From contig CP086569.2 of assembly GCA_009914755.4 (NCBI GenBank), positions 224,001 to 288,000 of the forward strand: DNA of 64,000 bases. Reading direction: 5' to 3'. A program made the position numbers and the translations under genes. The notes under the pieces were generated by a model. It worked only from the letters and a program-made list of their open reading frames with translations. It searched no databases and had not been told where the DNA came from. Positions within the stretch are counted from its first letter, which is position 1, and each line of letters begins with the position of its first letter. Source of the stretch: the human T2T-CHM13v2.0 reference genome, Homo sapiens. Below are positions 21 to 42,050 of the stretch, one piece after another.

Positions 21-265
21 GAAGCCTTTCTACCTTTATAAATTGTGTGATTTTTAGGTTAACAACTGTCAATGACGGAATGTTCAGTACGTGGGACTTT
101 CTTGTCTGTATGTGTGTGGTGGGGGGGGTCGGGGCGGGGAACAGACTCAATATGAAACCGTTTTGGGGTCTGACGCTCGCCCACCAGCCTCCATCGCGCA
201 GCCACACGCCCACTATGCGACCAGAGCCACCTGCGCAGTTGTTAGCAGAAGGAAGAGTAACTTAC

Positions 266-589
266 TACTCTCGTCCCTGCGGATCTACGGGTGCCTCGAA
301 CGTGGGGCGCGTTCCTGGGGCTGGAGGCGGCGCCCAGGGGCAGCGCAGGGCCCGGCCCGGGGGTTCCCGGGGGTTCGAGCCCGCTGGGCCGGGGGGCGGC
401 GAGCGGGGCTGTGGGCCAGGCCCCGGGCTGCTCCCCGTCCCCCGGGGTCGGCTGGTCCCGCCCGGGCGCCTTGATCCGGCGCAGGCAGTCCTGCAGCATC
501 CGCTGCGTGCTGGCCTCGCTGAGCCAGTACAGGAACAGCTCGTCCACCTTCATCTTCAGGACCGGCTGCAGCACTTTGCCGGGCGGCAT
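266..589 (-). CDS. Candidate first coding exon (108 codons) of an unidentified gene; ATG at 589-587, phase-0 GTAAGT donor at 265-260; gene continues beyond window start
   Basis: Minus-strand ORF begins MPPGKVLQPVLKMKVDELFLYWLSEASTQRMLQDCLRRIKAP, a non-repetitive N-terminus, then a Pro/Gly/Ala-rich stretch. ...acg aga gta|GTAAGT gives a canonical donor in frame. Embedded in the CpG island and not derived from any repeat. Confidence 0.5.
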
Positions 590-1082
590 GGCGGGGGCTG
601 GGCCCGCGGCGCCCCCGGACGCCCGCGCCCCGCCCCGCCCCGGGGGCTTCGGTCCGCCCCGGACCGACCTCGGTGATGCGAGCACGGCCCGCTGAGGGGG
701 CGCGGCGCAGGGAACAGGGCCCGCGCCTCGGGAACTGCGCGGACTCGCGGGGCGCGGGGACCGAGGAGGGGGCGCGGTCCGGCCCGCGCTGCTCAGGGCA
801 GCTTCAAAACGGGCGCGCCGGCCGCGCTCCCAAACAAGGGCGCCCGCGTTCACGTCACTGCGTCGCGTCATCGCGACGATGTCATCACGAGGCGACGCCG
901 CCGCTAGCCACGCGCGCCCCGCGGCCCTCGGAGCTTTTGCAGGAGGCTTTGGTGGGGCCGAGCGGCTGCGGTGAGGACGAGGGAGGGGCTGTGGCGGCCG
1001 TACCGCCCGAGCTCTTTCTGCGTTTAGGATTTTTAGAGGCGCGGCCCATGGCGGCGTGGCAGTCCTAGAGCTGCGGAAATGC

Positions 1083-1313
1083 GAGCATGCGCAATGCGTG
1101 CCTGCCAGAGCGAGGAGAGGGTGGAACCTCCGCATGGAGCATGCGCCGTGCATAGCGGTGGAGGAGCGGAGTTCGGGAGGCCGGTCGGGTGAGCGTGCGC
1201 AATGGCTGCCCGCGGGGCGCAAGCCAGAGGCTGGGAGGTGTGTGAGCGGGTGGGGCTGGAGGACGGGAGTGCGCCTGCGCAGTGGGAGGCACCGGGAACG
1301 AGCGAGCATGCGG
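1083..1313. promoter_or_regulatory. Cluster of four GAGC(A/G)TGCG(C) motifs (NRF1-like GCGCATGCGC half-sites), two followed by CAATG
   Basis: gagcatgcgcaatgcg (1083-1098), gagcatgcgc (1137-1146), gagcgtgcgcaatggc (1191-1206), gagcatgcgggg (1302-1313); plus gcgcctgcgc at 1270-1280. Confidence 0.4.
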
Positions 1314-1810
1314 GGTGCGCGCCCGCCGAGCTCGGGAGCGAGCGTGCGTCCTACGGGAGCGCGCGAGGAAAAGATCAAACTTTTCAATAACAGCGGGCTA
1401 CCTGGGACCCAAAGGGCCCCGTTTACTTTAGCTTTGCTTATCAAACAGTAGAGACAGGTTGGAGGAGTTGGACCCCTTTAAACGTTGGTGTTCAGGGATG
1501 AGCGTGAAGTGCGTTGAAAATTGCAAAAATCATCCACGTCCAGGGAGGTGACATTAGTTAAATAACTTTACCCAATGGTCGTTTTTGTTTCTGCTTTTAA
1601 CAGTATCCATAAAAACACTGCATTATCATCTGTCTGGCACACATGCACCTGTTTCCTTTACATCTTGCCCCGCTTTTTATTCATTTTTTATCAAAATAGG
1701 GTTTCACCTGGTGTTGCACCCTGTTAGAGAGTAATTTCAAGGTCTTTTATGAGCCAGGTTCTCCTACTTCTGAGCTGCATAAATCGAGCCAGACTCAATA
1801 AGTAACCCTT

Positions 1811-13157: not shown

Positions 13158-13972
<815 letters not shown>

Positions 13973-18336: not shown

Positions 18337-19003
18337 TAAGTCCTCTTTGAGATAAACGGGAATGGTTCGTGTCTTGACAGTGAGCATTTGCAGTAGAAAT
18401 CACGCACACTCAGCAGAGGGCTGCACAAGGCCAGCCGTGCTCCACCTGCCCCCCTCAAAAATCGGCCTCCGCACCTGCTGCGGCCATTTCATTACATCTC
18501 AAAACAACGTCAACTTATTTAATAAATAGGAGAATTTTTAAATCAAGTCCCGAGGCAGGATGTATAAACTTTAGTATTGATTATGCGTCCCTAAAAGCGC
18601 TCTCAGTAAAGGGACTTTGCTTCCTTTTCCTCAGGTTCCTATGAAGTCGTTTAATCCGTCTAACTCTTATTTTATGTTGTTTTCCCCGTTTTTATTACTT
18701 TATATGACAGTACATCTTTGTAGCCACAAACTCAATAGCATAATTGTGTGTTTTTTTTTCCCTGAGACAACAATGTGCTTTTTGTTCGAGGAGGTAATAA
18801 TTCTTGACAAAATCTGTTTTAATGTCGTACCGAAAAAAAAAACAAACCCCACAAAACCCTTAACGGACATTTGTAGTCCCCATTGGATCTAAAACACTGT
18901 GATATTGTTTGTGTAATCTGCTTTTAAAGTCACCAAAAGTGCTTTGTTGTAAATACTCTGTGATAACATTTGCTTTGTTAACGTATTTTAAATGAAATAT
19001 AGT

Positions 19004-19059
19004 TATAATTTCCCTCATGACATTTTCATTTAAATTTAAATGTCATGAGGGAAATTATA
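19004..19059. repeat. AT-rich near-perfect palindrome (22-bp arms tataatttccctcatgacattt / aaatgtcatgagggaaattata, 12-bp spacer)
   Basis: Right arm is the exact reverse complement of the left arm; the central tcatttaaatttaaatg spacer is itself nearly palindromic. Confidence 0.85.
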
Positions 19060-19290
19060 ATTTAATTTAAAAAACGATTTAAATTTATTTAATAAATTTA
19101 ATTAATAAATAATAATATATAATAAATATATAATAATAAATAAATAATCAAATTTGTTTAAATTTAAATTTATTTAAATTTATTCATTTATTTATTTATG
19201 TATTCATTTAGATAGTTATTTAAATTTATTTAAATTTATTATTATTTATTTTTATTTTATTTCATTTTATTTATTTTATTTTATTTTATT
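19060..19290. repeat. AT-rich low-complexity / (AAATTTATT)n-like tract
   Basis: aatttaaaaaacgatttaaatttatttaataaatttaattaataaataataatat...ttattttattttattttattt. Confidence 0.8.
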
Positions 19291-19292
19291 TT

Positions 19293-19430
19293 AGAGACAG
19301 GGTCTCCTTCTGTTGCCCAGCTTGGAGCGCACCTGTGTGATCTCGGCTCACTGCAGACTCCGCCTCCTGGGTTCAAGAGATCCTCCTGCCTCAGCGTGCA
19401 TGCACCACCAAGCCTGGCTCATATTTTTTA
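19293..19430 (-). mobile_element. Alu right-arm fragment
   Basis: gagacagggtctccttctgttgcccagcttggagcgcacctgtgtgatctcggctcactgcagactccgcctcctgggttcaagag. Confidence 0.75.
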
Positions 19431-19440
19431 GACATTTTAA

Positions 19441-19788
<348 letters not shown>

Positions 19789-20372
19789 TGACGCGCATCG
19801 TGTAGATGGAAGAGAAATCAAACGGCACCGTCTGCCGGGGCGGGATTGCAGCCCGTTCCAATGTCTCATTTATTCCCCGGGTGCTGGGAGAGTCTCTGGG
19901 ATGACAAGACTGATGGTTCCTAACCCAGGCCGGGGCAACGCATGACTTTTGACGCCTCGGAGAAGCCCTTCCTTCCTGGACTGTATTCTGACAGGGAGTG
20001 CGTCTCACGCTTTACCCGACGGCGCCCAGAGCGACCTTCATCGCGGCCCACCGGCCAGGGCCGTCTTCTGGATCTTCAGCGGCTTGAGGAACTTTCTGTC
20101 CCCTTCTGGGTTGACTGAATTTTTATCGCGAAAAGGCACTGCCTTTGCTCAAATGCTTTTCCTGCATTTCTGCAAATGGTCATGTGAGTTTGGCCCCTTA
20201 GCCATGAATACGGTGCGTCACATTCACTGGTTTTCCAGAAAAGAGCTGTATAGAGAGAGAATTTACACAGCTGACAATGTGTCCGTTTAAACTCTTCCAA
20301 CCCGTGGCTTTCTGTATGCAGAGACTTGTGCCACCATCACCACAGTCTATTTTATTGCTTTACTTATATTTG

Positions 20373-20470
20373 TTTTTTTTTTTTTTTTTGAGACAGGGTC
20401 TCGCTCCTGTAGCCTTGGACTCTCAGGCTCAAGGGATCCTCCCTCCTCAGCTCCCCAAGTAGCCGGGCAA
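20373..20470 (-). mobile_element. Partial Alu-like right arm that seeds the adjacent minisatellite
   Basis: poly-T, gagacagggtctcgctcctgtagccttggactctcaggctcaagggatcctccctcctcagctccccaagtagccggg. Confidence 0.7.
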
Positions 20471-22795
20471 CGTGGCTTCTCCCGAGTAGCTGGGTGACGC
20501 TGTTTCTCCAGAGTAGCTGGGTGACGCGGTTCCTCCCGAGTATCTGGGTGACGCGGCTTCTCCAGAGTTTCTGGGTGACGCGGCTTCTCCAGAGTAGCTG
20601 GAGGATGCTGTTTCTCCCGAGTAGCTGGGTGACGCTGTTTCTCCAGAGTAGCTGGGTGACGCGGTTTCTCCCGAGTATCTGGGTGAGGCGGCTTCTCCAG
20701 AGTTTCTGGGTGACGTGGCTTCTCCAGAGTAGCTGGAGGATGCTGTTTCTCCCGAGTAGCTGGGTGACGCCGTTTCTCCCGAGTAGCTGGGTGACGCTGT
20801 TTCTCCCGAGTAGCTGGGTGACGCTGTTTCTCCCGAGTAGCTGGGTGATGTTGTTTCTCCGGAGTAGCTGGTGACGCCGTTTCTCCCGAGTAGCTGGGTG
20901 ACGCCGTTTCTCCCGAGTAGCTGGGTGACGCTGTTTCTCCCGAGTAGCTGGGTGATGTTGTTTCTCCGGAGTAGCTGGTGACGCTGTTTCTCCGGAGTAG
21001 CTGGTGATGCCGTTTCTCCAGAGTAGCTGGTGATGCCGTTTCTCCCGAGTAGCTGGGTGATGCTGTTTCTCCAGAGTAGCTGGTGACGCTGTTTCTCCAG
21101 AGTAGCTGGTGACGCTGTTTCTCCCGAGTAGCTGGGTGAAGCCGTTTCTCCAGAGTAGCTGGTGACGCCGTTTCTCCCGAGTAGCTGGTGACGCCGTTTC
21201 TCCCGAGTAGCTGGTGACGCCGTTTCTCCCGAGTAGCTGGTGACGCCGTTTCTCCCGAGTAGCTGGTGACGCCGTTTCTCCAGAGTAGCTGAGTGACGCC
21301 GTTTCTCCCGAGTAGCTGGTGACGCCGTTTCTCCCGAGTAGCTGGTGACGCTGTTTCTCCCGAGTAGCTGAGTGACGCCGTTTCTCCCGAGTAGCTGGTG
21401 ACGCCGTTTCTCCCGAGTAGCTGGTGATGCTGTTTCTCCCGAGTAGCTGGTGATGCTGTTTCTCCCGAGTAGCTGGGTGACGCCGTTTCTCCCGAGTAGC
21501 TGAGTGACGCCGTTTCTCCCGAGTAGCTGAGTGACGCCGTTTCTCCCGAGTAGCTGGTGACGCCATTTCTCCTGAGTAGCTGAGTGACGCCGTTTCTCCC
21601 GAGTAGCTGGTGACGCCGTTTCTCCCGAGTAGCTGGTGACGCCGTTTCTCCCGAGTAGCTGGGTGACGCCGTTTCTCCCGAGTAGCTGGTGACGCCGTTT
21701 CTCCCGAGTAGCTGGTGACGCTGTTTCTCCAGAGTAGCTGGTGACGCTGTTTCTCCCGAGTAGCTGAGTGACGCCGTTTCTCCCGAGTAGCTGGTGACGC
21801 CGTTTCTCCCGAGTAGCTGGTGACGCCGTTTCTCCCGAGTAGCTGGTGACGCTGTTTCTCCAGAGTAGCTGGTGACGCCGTTTCTCCCGAGTAGCTGGGT
21901 GAAGCCGTTTCTCCAGAGTAGCTGGTGACGCCGTTTCTCCCGAGTAGCTGGTGACGCCGTTTCTCCCGAGTAGCTGGTGACGCCGTTTCTCCCGAGTAGC
22001 TGGTGACGCCGTTTCTCCCGAGTAGCTGGTGACGCCGTTTCTCCCGAGTAGCTGGTGACGCCGTTTCTCCAGAGTAGCTGAGTGACGCCGTTTCTCCAGA
22101 GTAGCTGGTGACGCCGTTTCTCCCGAGTAGCTGGTGACGCCGTTTCTCCCGAGTAGCTGGTGACGCCGTTTCTCCCGAGTAGCTGGTGACGCCGTTTCTC
22201 CCGAGTAGCTGGTGACGCCGTTTCTCCAGAGTAGCTGGTGACGCTGTTTCTCCAGAGTAGCTGGTGACGCCGTTTCTCCCGAGTAGCTGGGTGATGTTGT
22301 TTCTCCGGAGTAGCTGGTGACGCCGTTTCTCCCGAGTAGCTGGTGACGCCGTTTCTCCCGAGTAGCTGAGTGACGCCGTTTCTCCAGAGTAGCTGAGTGA
22401 CGCCGTTTCTCCCGAGTAGCTGAGTGACGCCGTTTCTCCCGAGTAGCTGGTGACGCCGTTTCTCCCGAGTAGCTGGTGACGCCGTTTCTCCCGAGTAGCT
22501 GGTGACGCCGTTTCTCCCGAGTAGCTGGTGACGCCGTTTCTCCAGAGTAGCTGGTGACGCCGTTTCTCCCGAGTAGCTGGGTGACGCCGTTTCTCCCGAG
22601 TAGCTGGTGACGCCGTTTCTCCGGAGTAGCTGGTGACGCCGTTTCTCCCGAGTAGCTGGGTGACGCGGCTTCTCCCGAGTAGCTGGGTGACGCGGCTTCT
22701 CCCGAGTAGCTGGGTGACGCGGTTTCTCCAGAGTAGCTGGGTGATGCGGTTTCTCCCGAGTAGCTGGGTGACGCGGTTTTTCCTGAGTAGCTGGG

Positions 22796-22797
<2 letters not shown>
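20450..22797. repeat. Minisatellite/VNTR, 26/27-bp unit (c)gtttctcccgagtagctgg(g)tgacgc, ~88 copies, ~2.35 kb
   Basis: Uninterrupted array of cccgagtagctggtgacgccgtttct units with point variants (ccag/ccga, gctg/gccg, ggtg/gggtg/gagtg). The unit core equals the Alu motif cctcccgagtagctggg. All three frames on one strand are open (825, 784 and 400 aa ORFs), so these are repeat artefacts. Confidence 0.95.
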
Positions 22798-23945
<1,148 letters not shown>

Positions 23946-29294: not shown

Positions 29295-30205
<911 letters not shown>

Positions 30206-30383: not shown

Positions 30384-31310
<927 letters not shown>

Positions 31311-39449: not shown

Positions 39450-40296
39450 GGGGGAGGGGACACCAGGACCCCCCAAAGGCCTGGTCGGCTGAGGTCATGG
39501 TTCATCCCGGGGTTGGGGGAGGGGACACCAGGACCCCCCAGAGGCCTGGTCGGCTGAGGTCATGGTTCATCCCGCGGTTGGGGGAGGGGACACCAGGACC
39601 CCCCAAAGGCCTGGTCGGCTGAGGTCATGGTTCATCCCGGGGTTGGGGGAGGGGACACCAGGACCCCCCAGAGGCCTGGTCGGCTGAGGTCATGGTTCAT
39701 CCCGCGGTTGGGGGAGGGGACACCAGGACCCCCCAAAGGCCTGGTCGGCTGAGGTCATGGTTCATCCCGGGGTTGGGGGAGGGGACACCAGGACCCCCCA
39801 AAGGCCTGGTCGGCTGAGGTCATGGTTCATCCCGGGGTTGGGGGAGGGGACACCAGGACCCCCCAAAGGCCTGGTCGGCTGAGGTCATGGTTCATCCCGG
39901 GGTTGGGGGAGGGGACACCAGGACCCCCCAAAGGCCTGGTCGGCTGAGGTCATGGTTCATCCCGGGGTTGGGGGAGGGGACACCAGGACCCCCCAGAGGC
40001 CTGGTCGGCTGAGGTCATGGTTCATCCCGCGGTTGGGGGAGGGGACACCAGGACCCCCCAAAGGCCTGGTCGGCTGAGGTCATGGTTCATCCCGGGGTTG
40101 GGGGAGGGGACACCAGGACCCCCCAGAGGCCTGGTCGGCTGAGGTCATGGTTCATCCCGCGGTTGGGGGAGGGGACACCAGGACCCCCCAAAGGCCTGGT
40201 CGGCTGAGGTCATGGTTCATCCCGGGGTTGGGGGAGGGGACACCAGGACCCCCCAAAGGCCTGGTCGGCTGAGGTCATGGTTCATCCCGGGGTTGG
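39450..40296. repeat. 65-bp minisatellite, ~13 copies, with two alternating unit variants
   Basis: Unit gggggaggggacaccaggacccccca(a/g)aggcctggtcggctgaggtcatggttcatcccg(g/c)ggtt. Variant A (aaagg...ccggggtt) and variant B (agagg...ccgcggtt) alternate A-B-A-B-A-A-A-A-B-A-B-A-A. Confidence 0.95.
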
Positions 40297-41211: not shown

Positions 41212-41247
<36 letters not shown>

Positions 41248-42050
41248 CTTGTATGTATATACGCATTTATACAGGTGTGGAGGTGTTTGTGTATATATAG
41301 ATATATATGATATATACGTATATTTAAACCATTAGAACATGATTTCCATTGCTAATATTTCAGTGAATATCTCTTTTCTAGCTCTAACTCCACACACACA
41401 CACAGACACACAGACACACCCCTTGTATGTATATATGCATTTATACAGGTGTGGAGGTATTTGTGCATACAGAGATATATATGATAAATAGGTATATTTA
41501 AACCATTAAAAGATGATTTTCATGGCTGACATTTCAGTAAATATTTCTCCTCTCTCCCTCTGTCCACACACACACAGCTTGTATGTATATACGCATTTAT
41601 ACAGGTGTAGAGGTATTTGTGCATATAAAGATGTATATGAGATATATGTCTGTTTAAACCATTAGAAGATGATTTTGATGGCTGATATTTCAGTGAGTAA
41701 CTCTCCTGTCTTTCTCTCTCTCTCTCTCTACACACACACACGGCTTGTATGTATATATGCATTTATACAGGTGTGGAGGTGTTTGTGCATATATAGATAT
41801 ATATGATATATACGTATATTTAAGCCATTAGAACATGATTTCCATTGCTAATATTTCAGTGAATATCTCTTTTCTAGCTCTAACTCCACACACACACGCA
41901 GACACACAGACACACCCCTTGTATGTATATATGCATTTATACAGGTGTGGAGGTATTTGTGCATATAGAGATATATATGATCTAGATGTATATTTAACCC
42001 ATTAGAAAATGATTTTCATGCTGATAGTACTTCAGTGAATATCTCTTAAA
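41190..42050. repeat. ~185-190-bp tandem repeat, ~4.6 copies, each unit containing a (CA)n core
   Basis: Units (ct)n(ca)n...gcttgtatgtatata(c/t)gcatttatacaggtgt(g/a)gaggt(g/a)tttgtg(t/c)ata.a.agat.tatatgatatat.c.tatatttaaaccattagaa.atgatttccattgctaatatttcagtgaatatctc recur five times. Confidence 0.9.

What the first reader, a model, noticed from the sequence alone, without database searches (positions are those of the whole stretch)
20373..22797. 2.35-kb 26/27-bp minisatellite born inside an Alu and butted against a THE1 LTR
About 88 copies of (c)gtttctcccgagtagctgg(g)tgacgc. The unit core is the Alu box cctcccgagtagctggg, and the array starts inside a partial Alu right arm (20373-20470). This makes it a clear Alu-internal minisatellite expansion. 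It terminates within a base or two of the first nucleotide of a THE1/MaLR LTR. Unit variants (ccag/ccga, gctg/gccg, ggtg/gggtg/gagtg) are interspersed rather than blocked, which suggests ongoing conversion and unequal exchange. This is a strong candidate for a hypervariable, length-polymorphic locus.
Basis: seen in the sequence. Interest (0 to 1): 0.55.

Follow-up and report, generated by a model that had tools for sequence, protein, structure and literature searches.

The report
Minisatellite born at an Alu/LTR junction
A real 2.35-kb array of 26/27-base repeats whose unit is stitched from the last 16 bases of an old Alu and the first 11 bases of a retroviral-type LTR that had jumped into that Alu: an ordinary non-coding minisatellite whose origin can be reconstructed unusually clearly.

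Summary
TRF finds one array at 20477-22799, period 26, 87.8 copies, 93% matches. By my phasing it is 89 units, 20452-22806.

The "partial Alu" is half of an AluJ-like element that was split by a full-length THE1-type solo LTR (22796-23437). The other half resumes at 23443, after a 5-bp target-site duplication (CTGGG / CTTGG). The repeat unit is a chimera. Sixteen nt are Alu (CTCCCGAGTAGCTGGG, including the duplicated target site). Eleven nt (TGACGCGGTTT at the array edges) match the LTR's own first 11 nt (TGACATGGTTT) in register at 9/11; chance is about 3e-4. So the array was born across the Alu/LTR junction after the LTR inserted. It does not merely abut the LTR.

Variants are zoned. Both edges are diverged ancestral 27-mers. 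The centre is a homogenised derived 26-mer, with multi-unit duplications.

The window looks like pseudoautosomal region 1. A PPP2R3B-like exon 1 lies 19.9 kb away, and there are several other minisatellites and a high CpG content.

Hypervariability is plausible but could not be tested, because no other allele or orthologue is in any searchable collection. Ordinary in kind, modest interest.

The parts
20373..20467 (-). 3' part of an AluJ-like SINE, antisense on the + strand: A-tail read as poly-T, then the right arm with a 41-column gap relative to intact Alus. Ends in the box ...AAGTAGCCGGG.
   Evidence: Alignment of the rejoined element to six in-window Alus.
20452..22806 (.). The whole minisatellite: 89 units of 26/27 nt (2355 bp, GC 59%, 204 CpG, CpG o/e 1.00).
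20452..20478 (.). Unit 1 ('P', TCCCCAAGTAGCCGGG+CAACGTGGCTT). This is the original Alu box followed by a diverged copy of the 11-nt LTR-derived tail. It differs from the edge-type unit at 8 of 27 positions, all transitions.
20479..21120 (.). 5' zone, units 2-25: mostly 27-mers, mean pairwise difference 14.7% (computed over units 1-25, including P). Contains a 5-unit, 135-bp higher-order repeat present twice (20479-20613 and 20614-20748, 3 differences in 135), then the unit pattern EDDGH/EDGW.
21121..22644 (.). Central zone, units 26-83: homogenised (5.8% pairwise). Dominated by the derived 26-mer CTCCCGAGTAGCTGGTGACGCCGTTT (26 identical copies), with interspersed GAGTG and GGGTG 27-mers. An exact 165-bp duplicate lies at 21117-21281 and 21880-22044.
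22645..22806 (.). 3' zone, units 84-89: 27-mers with ancestral GCGG-type tails. The last unit's tail is the LTR's own 5' end.
22791..22795 (.). Left copy of the LTR's 5-bp target-site duplication (CTGGG). It is the end of the Alu box and lies inside every repeat unit.
22796..23437 (+). Full-length THE1-type (MaLR) solo LTR, TG...CA, 359 bp once the nested Alu is removed. Its first 11 nt, TGACATGGTTT, are the source of the unit's tail.
   Evidence: searches (5' motif, 1 mismatch; end-to-end alignment to a THE1B consensus recalled from memory, 86% identity), plus the TSD and Alu continuity.
22950..23222 (-). Younger AluS-like element nested in the LTR, flanked by the TSD (G/A)AGATCTGAT at 22940-22949 and 23223-23232. 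It is unrelated to the array.
23438..23442 (.). Right copy of the LTR's target-site duplication (CTTGG, 4 of 5 identical to CTGGG).
23443..23612 (-). 5' part of the same AluJ-like element: the rest of the right arm, the A-rich linker and the left arm. It resumes with ACTGTAGGTGC, exactly where the box GTAGCTGGG leaves off.

Best explanation
This is a junction-born, transposon-derived minisatellite. Steps 1, 2, 4 and 5 are shown by the sequence. Step 3 is shown as to its product but inferred as to its mechanism. Steps 6 and 7 are inferred.

1. An AluJ-like SINE sat here in antisense orientation.
2. A THE1-type MaLR element integrated into its right arm immediately after ...GAGTAGCTGGG, duplicating CTGGG. 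It was later reduced to a solo LTR.
3. A 27-nt segment spanning the new junction was duplicated once. It consisted of 16 nt of Alu (CTCCCGAGTAGCTGGG, including the duplicated target site) plus the first 11 nt of the LTR (TGAYRYGGTTT).
4. Once two tandem copies existed, out-of-register exchange, slippage and gene conversion expanded the array to 89 units.
5. In the interior, a unit that had lost one G (GGG to GG, giving 26 nt) and changed GCGG to GCCG spread and now dominates. The outermost units on both sides take less part in exchange and stay as diverged 27-mer relics.
6. The setting probably explains both the expansion and the retention of three CpGs per unit. It appears to be pseudoautosomal region 1, with very high male recombination and strong GC-biased conversion.
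7. I see no sign of a function. It is non-coding, about 20 kb upstream of a PPP2R3B-like first exon. It is most likely a neutral by-product of recombination and replication errors, and probably variable in length between haplotypes.
For: Split Alu: 20366-20467 joined to 23443-23625 aligns end to end with six intact in-window Alus, with no gap at the splice (GTAGCCGGG|ACTGTAGG against GTAGCTGGG|ATTACAGG).

LTR boundaries: they are fixed independently by the TG...CA termini, by the 5-bp TSD CTGGG/CTTGG and by Alu continuity. The 359-bp LTR also aligns from first base to last with a recalled THE1B consensus at 86% (5' motif).

Chimeric unit: the 16-nt Alu part of the common 27-mer units is identical to the box in intact in-window Alus; the modal 26-mer has lost one G of it. 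The edge-type tail TGACGCGGTTT (and TGACGTGGCTT) matches the LTR's first 11 nt, TGACATGGTTT, at 9/11 without gaps and in exact register, and both mismatches are transitions. Only 2.8e-4 of window 11-mers match that well (1.3e-4 under a uniform model). The best match of the tail anywhere in the rejoined Alu has 4 mismatches. The real Alu continuation has 8 mismatches and a negative gapped score.

Ancestral edges: at the one tail position where edges and centre differ systematically (column 23), both edges carry the LTR's base G and the centre carries C or T.

Turnover: pairwise unit divergence is 14.7% (5' zone), 5.8% (centre) and 9.1% (3' zone). A 135-bp five-unit block is duplicated with 3 differences, and a 165-bp stretch is duplicated exactly 763 bp away.

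Context: a PPP2R3B-like exon 1 has its ATG at 589 on the minus strand, 19.9 kb from the array. PPP2R3B lies in PAR1 on the minus strand and is a recombination hotspot, and PAR1 has strong gBGC at CpG sites (PMC9575207, PMC5838017). At least four other minisatellites are in the window. The window's CpG o/e is 0.54 and the array's is 1.00.
Against: No outgroup or second allele could be obtained, so the order of events rests on one sequence.

The tail differs from the present LTR start at 2-3 of 11 positions and from the recalled THE1 consensus at 3-4, so the exact ancestral 11-mer is unknown.

The THE1 consensus is from memory. No repeat library was available.

The initiating duplication is unexplained. 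There is no direct repeat at 27-nt spacing in the reconstructed junction, only CCTCCCGAG/CCTCCCAAG 38 nt apart. There is also no hairpin propensity.

The PAR1 assignment rests on one exon, on my recollection of the human protein sequence and on literature. The protein database returned no primate hit, and the best hits were about 68% identical mammalian sequences.
Confidence: 0.85

Rival explanations
1. The array is a purely Alu-internal minisatellite that expanded inside the Alu right arm. The LTR merely lies next to it, either because it inserted later at the array's edge or by coincidence.
For: Sixteen of the 27 nt are a perfect Alu box. The array is flanked on the left by contiguous Alu sequence. 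Alu-derived tandem repeats are common, since about 23% of human minisatellites are TE-derived (PMC3389668).
Against: The remaining 11 nt do not match Alu sequence. The best match anywhere in the element has 4 mismatches, and the true continuation ACTGTAGGTGC has 8. The same 11 nt match the LTR's first 11 nt at 9/11 in register, which has a chance of about 3e-4. An LTR inserting by chance exactly where the unit's next bases look like its own terminus is very unlikely.
Confidence: 0.06
2. The same junction origin with a different first step. The imperfect direct repeats CCTCCCGAG (Alu) and CCTCCCAAG (LTR positions 22-30), 38 nt apart, drove a Haber-Louis-type duplication of a 38-nt unit. That unit then lost 11 nt (GGCTATGTCCC) to give the 27-mer that expanded.
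For: The 8/9 direct repeat lies at 38-nt spacing in the reconstructed junction, and its left copy starts one base before the unit. The Haber-Louis model needs 5-10-bp flanking repeats (PMC3389668).
Against: No 38-nt unit or remnant of one survives anywhere in the array, where every unit is 26 or 27 nt. It also needs an extra deletion event.
Confidence: 0.07
3. The array is a functional cis-element rather than a neutral by-product. It could be a CpG-island-like regulatory VNTR acting on the PPP2R3B promoter 20 kb away. Or it could be one of the repeat platforms that load the meiotic break machinery in the pseudoautosomal region, as the mo-2 minisatellite does in mouse.
For: All 38 sliding 500-bp windows meet the CpG-island sequence criteria. 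The location appears to be a minisatellite-rich stretch of PAR1 near a reported hotspot gene (PMC9575207, which also mentions mo-2 and suggests a recombinogenic role for PAR1 repeats). A degenerate PRDM9-type 13-mer lies about 110 bp to the left.
Against: There are no data on methylation, chromatin, protein binding or breaks. There is no PRDM9-type motif inside the array, no Jeffreys core and no special secondary structure. The CpG richness has a simpler explanation in homogenisation plus gBGC.
Confidence: 0.04
4. The copy number and variant order are partly an assembly artefact, that is, a collapsed or mis-joined repeat.
For: A 2.3-kb array of 26-bp units is hard to assemble from short reads, and it contains exact 165-bp internal duplicates.
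Against: The array has a coherent, non-random architecture. Both edges are diverged and join cleanly to unique flanks, and it contains 30 distinct unit types. That is not what collapse or random mis-joining produces. Read-level data are not available here.
Confidence: 0.03

Closest known systems
TE-derived minisatellites of the human genome (Ahmed & Liang 2012, PMC3389668; Jurka & Gentles 2006, Alu-derived minisatellites)
   Same: The unit is built from transposable-element sequence and expanded in situ by local duplication. The units resemble each other more than anything else in the window. AluJ-associated arrays are the ones reported to reach the most copies.
   Different: The unit is not a contiguous piece of one element. 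It spans the insertion junction between two unrelated elements (SINE and LTR) and includes the target-site duplication. With 89 units it is far above the reported mean of about 2.4 copies for Alu-derived arrays. Neither published birth signature (5-20-bp flanking direct repeats, or a truncated terminal unit) is present at the 27-nt period.
Classical minisatellites embedded in dispersed repeats, e.g. MS32 (D1S8) inside a retroviral LTR-like (MaLR/THE1-type) element (Armour et al. 1989; recalled from memory, not checked here)
   Same: A GC-rich minisatellite associated with a MaLR-type LTR and Alu elements, in a terminal and recombination-rich chromosomal region.
   Different: As I recall, MS32 expanded from within the LTR-like element. 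Here only 11 nt come from the LTR's extreme 5' end, and the rest is Alu. The unit sequence is unrelated: the Jeffreys core is absent.
Pseudoautosomal hypervariable minisatellites (DXYS14, DXYS15, DXYS17, DXYS20; from memory)
   Same: The presumed chromosomal setting (PAR1) is the same, as is the clustering with other minisatellites in a GC- and CpG-rich, Alu-dense stretch.
   Different: No evidence links this array to any named DXYS locus. Its unit strings are absent from the searchable literature, and its polymorphism is untested.
SVA / LAVA composite retrotransposons (SINE-VNTR-Alu)
   Same: An antisense Alu fragment, a VNTR and LTR-derived sequence lie side by side in that order.
   Different: This is a resemblance of layout only. 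This locus is a nested insertion with target-site duplications, not a mobile composite. The VNTR unit is unrelated to the 35-50-bp SVA unit, and no other copy exists in the window.

Membership tests
Minisatellite (tandem repeat, unit 10-100 bp) | Head-to-tail copies of a 10-100-bp unit, well above chance | tested here: met
   TRF gives period 26, 87.8 copies, 93% matches, score 3621. There are 89 parsed units. A unit 16-mer occurs 48 times against 0.05 expected.
VNTR / hypervariable minisatellite | Copy number differs between haplotypes (high heterozygosity, measurable germline mutation rate) | not testable with these tools
   There are no exact matches to unit or junction strings in the viral, GTDB-genome or JGI-metagenome collections, and the protein database returned no primate hit for the neighbouring PPP2R3B-like exon. 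The only evidence is indirect: a homogenised centre and exact multi-unit duplicates.
Jeffreys-core minisatellites | Unit contains the shared core GGGCAGGAXG / GGAGGTGGGCAGGARG | tested here: not met
   The best match in the array on either strand has 3 of 10 or 7 of 16 mismatches. The 26-mer does contain GCTGGTG, 7 of 8 bases of chi, 48 times.
TE-derived tandem repeat (criteria of PMC3389668) | The unit is similar to a TE consensus, or the array overlaps an annotated TE by at least one period | tested here: met
   Sixteen nt are identical to the Alu box in intact in-window Alus. Eleven nt match the LTR 5' end at 9/11. The first unit lies in the Alu and the last lies in the LTR.
Alu-internal minisatellite (Jurka & Gentles type) | The whole unit is a contiguous stretch of Alu sequence | tested here: not met
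   The 11-nt tail has at least 4 mismatches everywhere in the rejoined Alu and 8 against the true continuation.
Alu-internal minisatellite (Jurka & Gentles type) | The array is flanked by short direct repeats at the unit spacing (Haber-Louis signature) | tested here: not met
   There is no direct repeat at 27-nt spacing in the reconstructed junction. The nearest is an 8/9 repeat at 38 nt.
THE1 / MaLR solo LTR | TG...CA termini and a 5-bp target-site duplication | tested here: met
   The LTR runs TGACATGG...CTAGTACA (22796-23437) and is flanked by CTGGG and CTTGG (4/5). The host Alu sequence is continuous across the site.
THE1 / MaLR solo LTR | About 350-370 bp with full-length similarity to a THE1 consensus, and no internal region | tested here: inconclusive
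   The LTR is 359 bp after removing the nested Alu. It aligns end to end at 86% identity to a THE1B consensus that I recalled from memory, and the 5' motif matches with 1 mismatch. No curated repeat library was available, so the subfamily is unassigned.
AluJ SINE | Dimeric Alu with an A-tail, and old-subfamily diagnostic bases | tested here: inconclusive
   The rejoined element aligns over both arms and the tail with six Alus. It carries GGGACTGTAGG and CTCAAGGGATCCTCC, where the AluS copies have GGGATTACAGG and TTCAAGCGATTCTCC. The subfamily call rests on diagnostic positions recalled from memory.
CpG island | Sequence criteria: at least 500 bp, GC at least 55%, CpG o/e at least 0.65 | tested here: met
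   2355 bp, GC 59%, o/e 1.00. All 38 sliding 500-bp windows pass.
CpG island | Unmethylated in the germline or in tissues | not testable with these tools
   No methylation data are available.
PAR break-machinery platform (mouse mo-2-like) | Binding of REC114/MEI4/ANKRD31/IHO1 and heavy DSB formation over the array | not testable with these tools
   I have only the literature pointer (PMC9575207 discussion), with no sequence or binding data.

The most novel reading that the evidence does not exclude
The array, together with the other minisatellites clustered in this window, is not inert. It would be part of the cis-acting repeat landscape that makes human PAR1 a platform for the obligatory male X-Y crossover, a functional analogue of the mouse mo-2 arrays. 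Its CpG-rich, homogenised core would be maintained by, and would feed back on, very frequent meiotic breaks.
Probability: 0.04. Interest if true: 0.8.

Novelty: new member of a known kind. Interest (0 to 1): 0.3.

Why it matters
How minisatellites are born is poorly understood. The two published models explain only about 6% of TE-derived arrays (PMC3389668). This locus is a worked example in which the founding segment can be read directly, because it straddles a datable insertion junction: 16 nt of host Alu, including the 5-bp target-site duplication, plus the first 11 nt of the LTR. That gives an upper bound on the array's age, since it must be younger than the LTR insertion. It also gives a defined ancestral unit against which to polarise every variant. 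And it makes a sharp prediction for primate orthologues: the LTR should be present, with a single-copy junction or a short array of 27-mers. In practice, repeat annotation that assigns such arrays to "Alu" alone will mis-state their origin. If the locus is in PAR1, it would also be a convenient marker of exchange in the most recombination-active part of the male genome.

Tried and rejected
1. Other alleles or orthologues. Exact scans with a 28-mer of the modal unit and a 22-mer of the ancestral junction found nothing in the viral, GTDB-genome and JGI-metagenome collections. The protein database returned no primate hit, so I ran no further search on the array's spurious ORFs.

2. Literature. 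The unit strings occur in no searchable paper. Searches combining minisatellite/THE1/Alu, the DXYS loci, PPP2R3B with VNTR, and PPP2R3B with tandem repeat gave context only. Jurka & Gentles 2006 is not held. The supplements of Course et al. 2021 are not held.

3. Hairpin-driven slippage. Single strands of five central units fold no better than shuffled sequence (z = +2.5 and +1.3). The old 5' block is only marginally better (z = -1.5 and -1.9). Rejected as a driver.

4. Haber-Louis and Taylor-Breden birth signatures at the 27-nt period. Not found.

5. My first impression that nearly all unit variants are CpG-decay transitions was wrong. CCCGAG to CCAGAG is a C>A transversion. The defensible statement is that 76 of 117 substitution occurrences fall on the three CpG cytosines (columns 5, 20, 23), while their partner Gs vary once each. 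These counts are occurrences, not independent events.

6. Weak-to-strong bias. The LTR against the recalled consensus gives 20 W>S and 24 S>W changes, which is uninformative and rests on a recalled consensus.

7. PRDM9 13-mer inside the array. None.

8. SVA-like composite element. Rejected, because the layout is explained by nested insertions with target-site duplications.
Full report
OBSERVATION

Tandem Repeats Finder reports one array at 20477-22799 with period 26 (also 79 and 105), 87.8 copies, 93% matches and 1% indels. Splitting the sequence on the conserved AGTAGC anchor gives 89 units, 41 of 27 nt and 48 of 26 nt. A 16-mer from the unit occurs 48 times in the window against 0.05 expected, and nowhere outside the array. 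Phased as [CTCCCGAGTAGCTGG(G)][TGACGCCGTTT], the array runs from 20452 to 22806. That is 2355 bp, with GC 59% and 204 CpGs, giving a CpG observed/expected ratio of 1.00.

WHAT FLANKS IT

On the right, the LTR ends in ...CTAGTACA at 23437. The next bases are CTTGG and then ACTGTAGGTGCACAACACC.... That is the continuation of the same Alu.

I joined 20366-20467 (poly-T through the first box...AAGTAGCCGGG) to 23443-23625. The resulting element aligns end to end with six intact Alus from the same window, with no gap at the splice: GTAGCCGGG|ACTGTAGG against GTAGCTGGG|ATTACAGG. The element has a 41-column gap in its right arm. It carries bases I recall as AluJ-diagnostic (GGGACTGTAGG, CTCAAGGGATCCTCC). 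The AluS copies nearby have GGGATTACAGG and TTCAAGCGATTCTCC.

So the Alu is 'partial' only because something was inserted into it. The insert is 22796-23437. It begins TG and ends CA, and it is flanked by CTGGG (22791-22795) and CTTGG (23438-23442), a 5-bp target-site duplication with one mismatch. It contains a younger Alu at 22950-23222 with its own duplication, (G/A)AGATCTGAT.

Without that Alu the insert is 359 bp. It aligns from first base to last with the THE1B consensus as I remember it, at 86% identity. A 19-mer from the recalled 5' end matches at 22800 with one mismatch and nowhere else in the window. It is therefore a full-length THE1-type solo LTR. The subfamily cannot be assigned without a repeat library.

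THE UNIT IS A CHIMERA

The first 16 nt of the 27-nt units (CTCCCGAGTAGCTGGG; the 26-mer has lost one G of the run) are identical to the box in intact Alus and end with the duplicated target site CTGGG.

The remaining 11 nt are TGACGCCGTTT in the modal unit. In the units at both ends of the array they are TGACGCGGTTT, TGACGTGGCTT or TGATGCGGTTT. The LTR's own first 11 nt are TGACATGGTTT, and they occupy exactly the position of the tail in the last unit.

- The edge-type tails match the LTR start at 9 of 11 positions with no gap, and both mismatches are transitions.
- Only 2.8e-4 of all 11-mers in the window match that closely, or 1.3e-4 under a uniform model.
- The best match of the tail anywhere in the rejoined Alu, on either strand, has four mismatches.
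- The real Alu continuation (ACTGTAGGTGC) has eight mismatches and a negative gapped score.
- At the one tail position where edge and central units differ systematically (column 23), both edges carry the LTR's G and the centre carries C or T.

The first unit, P at 20452-20478, is the original Alu box followed by CAACGTGGCTT, a further-diverged copy of the same tail.

The simplest reading is that a 27-nt segment straddling the Alu/LTR junction was duplicated and then amplified. The array therefore post-dates the LTR insertion. It does not 'terminate within a base or two' of the LTR, because it shares its last 11 nt with it.

INTERNAL ARCHITECTURE

Coding each distinct unit by a letter gives this map:

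PDQRSKDTUVKEDDGHEDGWXYZFFLBAAAAIAJCAMMECCabAAEAJFCAAJBLBAAAAAIBAAAAFBGHACICAAAABEAHNNOcOd

- Units 1-25 are mostly 27-mers, with 14.7% mean pairwise difference. They include a five-unit, 135-bp block present twice with 3 differences (20479-20613 and 20614-20748).
- Units 26-83 are dominated by one 26-mer (26 identical copies), with 5.8% pairwise difference. They contain a 165-bp stretch repeated exactly 763 bp away.
- Units 84-89 are again 27-mers with GCGG-type tails, at 9.1%.

Diverged ends and a homogenised interior are what out-of-register exchange within a tandem array is expected to produce (inference from general models). This speaks for intra-array exchange or slippage rather than a strongly polarised, one-ended process.

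Substitution variation is concentrated on the three CpG cytosines of the unit: 76 of 117 occurrences fall at columns 5, 20 and 23. The partner Gs vary once each. These are occurrences, not independent events. My initial idea that the variants are mostly CpG-decay transitions was wrong for the commonest one, since CCCGAG to CCAGAG is C>A.

The G deletion that created the 26-mer also created GCTGGTG, 7 of 8 bases of bacterial chi, which is now present 48 times. I regard this as a curiosity. The Alu part of the unit is the right-arm paralogue of the '26-bp Alu core' that has been linked to rearrangements (PMC1142316, citing Rüdiger et al. 1995).

HOW THE FIRST DUPLICATION AROSE IS NOT RESOLVED

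The reconstructed single-copy junction has no direct repeat at 27-nt spacing. The only notable one is CCTCCCGAG/CCTCCCAAG, 38 nt apart. Using it would require a 38-nt founder unit and a later 11-nt deletion, and no trace of either survives. Single strands of the central units fold no better than shuffled controls, so hairpin-promoted slippage is not supported.

CONTEXT

The ORF at 242-1444 on the minus strand contains MPPGKVLQPVLKMKVDELFLYWLSEASTQRMLQDCLRRIKAPG.... I recognise this from memory as the start of human PPP2R3B. The protein search returned mammalian relatives at about 68% identity and a fish protein named PP2A regulatory subunit B'' beta, but no primate entry.

PPP2R3B lies in pseudoautosomal region 1, is transcribed from the minus strand, and overlaps a very strong recombination peak. 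PAR1 shows unusually strong GC-biased conversion at CpG sites and an excess of C>G changes (PMC9575207, PMC5838017). PAR1 genes are crowded with tandem repeats (PMC3089472).

The window fits that picture:
- GC is 53% and CpG o/e is 0.54.
- It is dense in Alus.
- It has further minisatellites at 39450-40296 (65 bp x 13), 42275-43116 (20 bp x 42) and 47399-51284 (41 bp x 93).
- It has Alu-derived long-unit arrays at 13261-13972 and 29314-30164.

The array lies 19.9 kb upstream of the PPP2R3B-like ATG at 589. This setting gives a plausible reason, by inference, for both the large expansion and the retention of three CpGs per unit.

HYPERVARIABILITY

I could not test it. Neither a 28-mer of the modal unit nor a 22-mer of the ancestral junction occurs in the viral, GTDB-genome or JGI-metagenome collections. 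The unit is not quoted in the searchable literature. From the architecture and the setting I think length polymorphism is very likely. Whether it reaches the 'hypervariable' class is open. No PRDM9-type 13-mer lies in the array; one degenerate match (CCACCATCACCAC) lies about 110 bp to its left at 20331-20343. The Jeffreys core is absent.

COMPARISON AND VERDICT

In kind this is a TE-derived minisatellite, a class that accounts for about 23% of human minisatellites (PMC3389668). It departs from the usual description in two ways. Its unit is not a piece of one element but spans the junction of two, including the target-site duplication. And it has about 89 units where Alu-derived arrays average about 2.4.

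It fails the tests for a purely Alu-internal minisatellite, because 11 of the 27 nt are not Alu and there is no flanking direct repeat at the unit period.

I rate it a new member of a known kind, of modest interest. Its value is as a cleanly reconstructable example of minisatellite birth and as a candidate length-variable marker in PAR1.

Noticed in passing
window 39450-40296; 42275-43116; 47399-51284; 41217-42047; 54708-55296; 57586-58632: The window is a cluster of other tandem arrays: 65 bp x 13 (97% matches), 20 bp x 42, 41/80 bp x 93 (3.9 kb, strong GC skew), 174 bp x 4.9, an AG-rich array and a complex CA-rich array. This density is typical of a subtelomeric or pseudoautosomal region.
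   Followed up: no
window 13261-13972; 29314-30164; 30743-31086: Alu-derived arrays with long units: 132 bp x 5.4 at 96% matches, 166 bp x 5.1 at 91%, and 165 bp x 2.1 at 97%. These are further TE-to-tandem-repeat conversions in the same 64 kb.
   Followed up: no
window 242-1444 (-), ATG at 589: An ORF containing MPPGKVLQPVLKMKVDELFLYWLSEASTQRMLQDCLRRIKAPG..., recognised from memory as exon 1 of PPP2R3B (PAR1). The database returned about 68% identical mammalian relatives and a fish protein named PP2A B'' beta, but no primate entry. The first 2 kb of the window has 62% GC, consistent with a promoter CpG island.
   Followed up: partly
whole window; 18452-20451: CpG observed/expected is 0.54 across the window and 0.84 in the 2 kb left of the array, although that flank has only 41.5% GC. 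I recall typical primate DNA as being well below these values. This is consistent with the reported strong GC-biased conversion at CpG sites in PAR1 (PMC9575207).
   Followed up: partly
window 20331-20343 (+): A match to the degenerate PRDM9 hotspot 13-mer CCNCCNTNNCCNC (CCACCATCACCAC) lies about 110 bp left of the first repeat unit. The window has 14 matches against 4.6 expected, several of which lie in Alu-like sequence.
   Followed up: no
window 20452-22806, unit columns 5/6, 20/21, 23/24: Strand asymmetry of variation at the unit's three CpGs. The cytosines vary in 28, 14 and 34 units, while the partner guanines vary in one unit each. This could reflect a few founder variants spread by conversion, or a real strand bias.
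   Followed up: partly
window 20404-20410 region (right arm of the split Alu): The split AluJ-like element shows a 41-column gap in its right arm relative to six intact Alus. Its own target-site duplication is not evident.
   Followed up: no
window 52581-53321 (+): An ORF whose translation (...FDPAIPLLGIYPKD...IAKTWNQPKCP...WHIYTMEYYAA...) looks from memory like the C-terminal part of LINE-1 ORF2.
   Followed up: no
window 19949-20290: The 340 bp just left of the Alu is CpG-rich and is neither Alu-like nor a tandem repeat (e.g. ...CGCATGACTTTTGACGCCTCGGAG...CGACGGCGCCCAGAGCGACC...). Its identity is unknown. It may be another old repeat or a conserved element.
   Followed up: no
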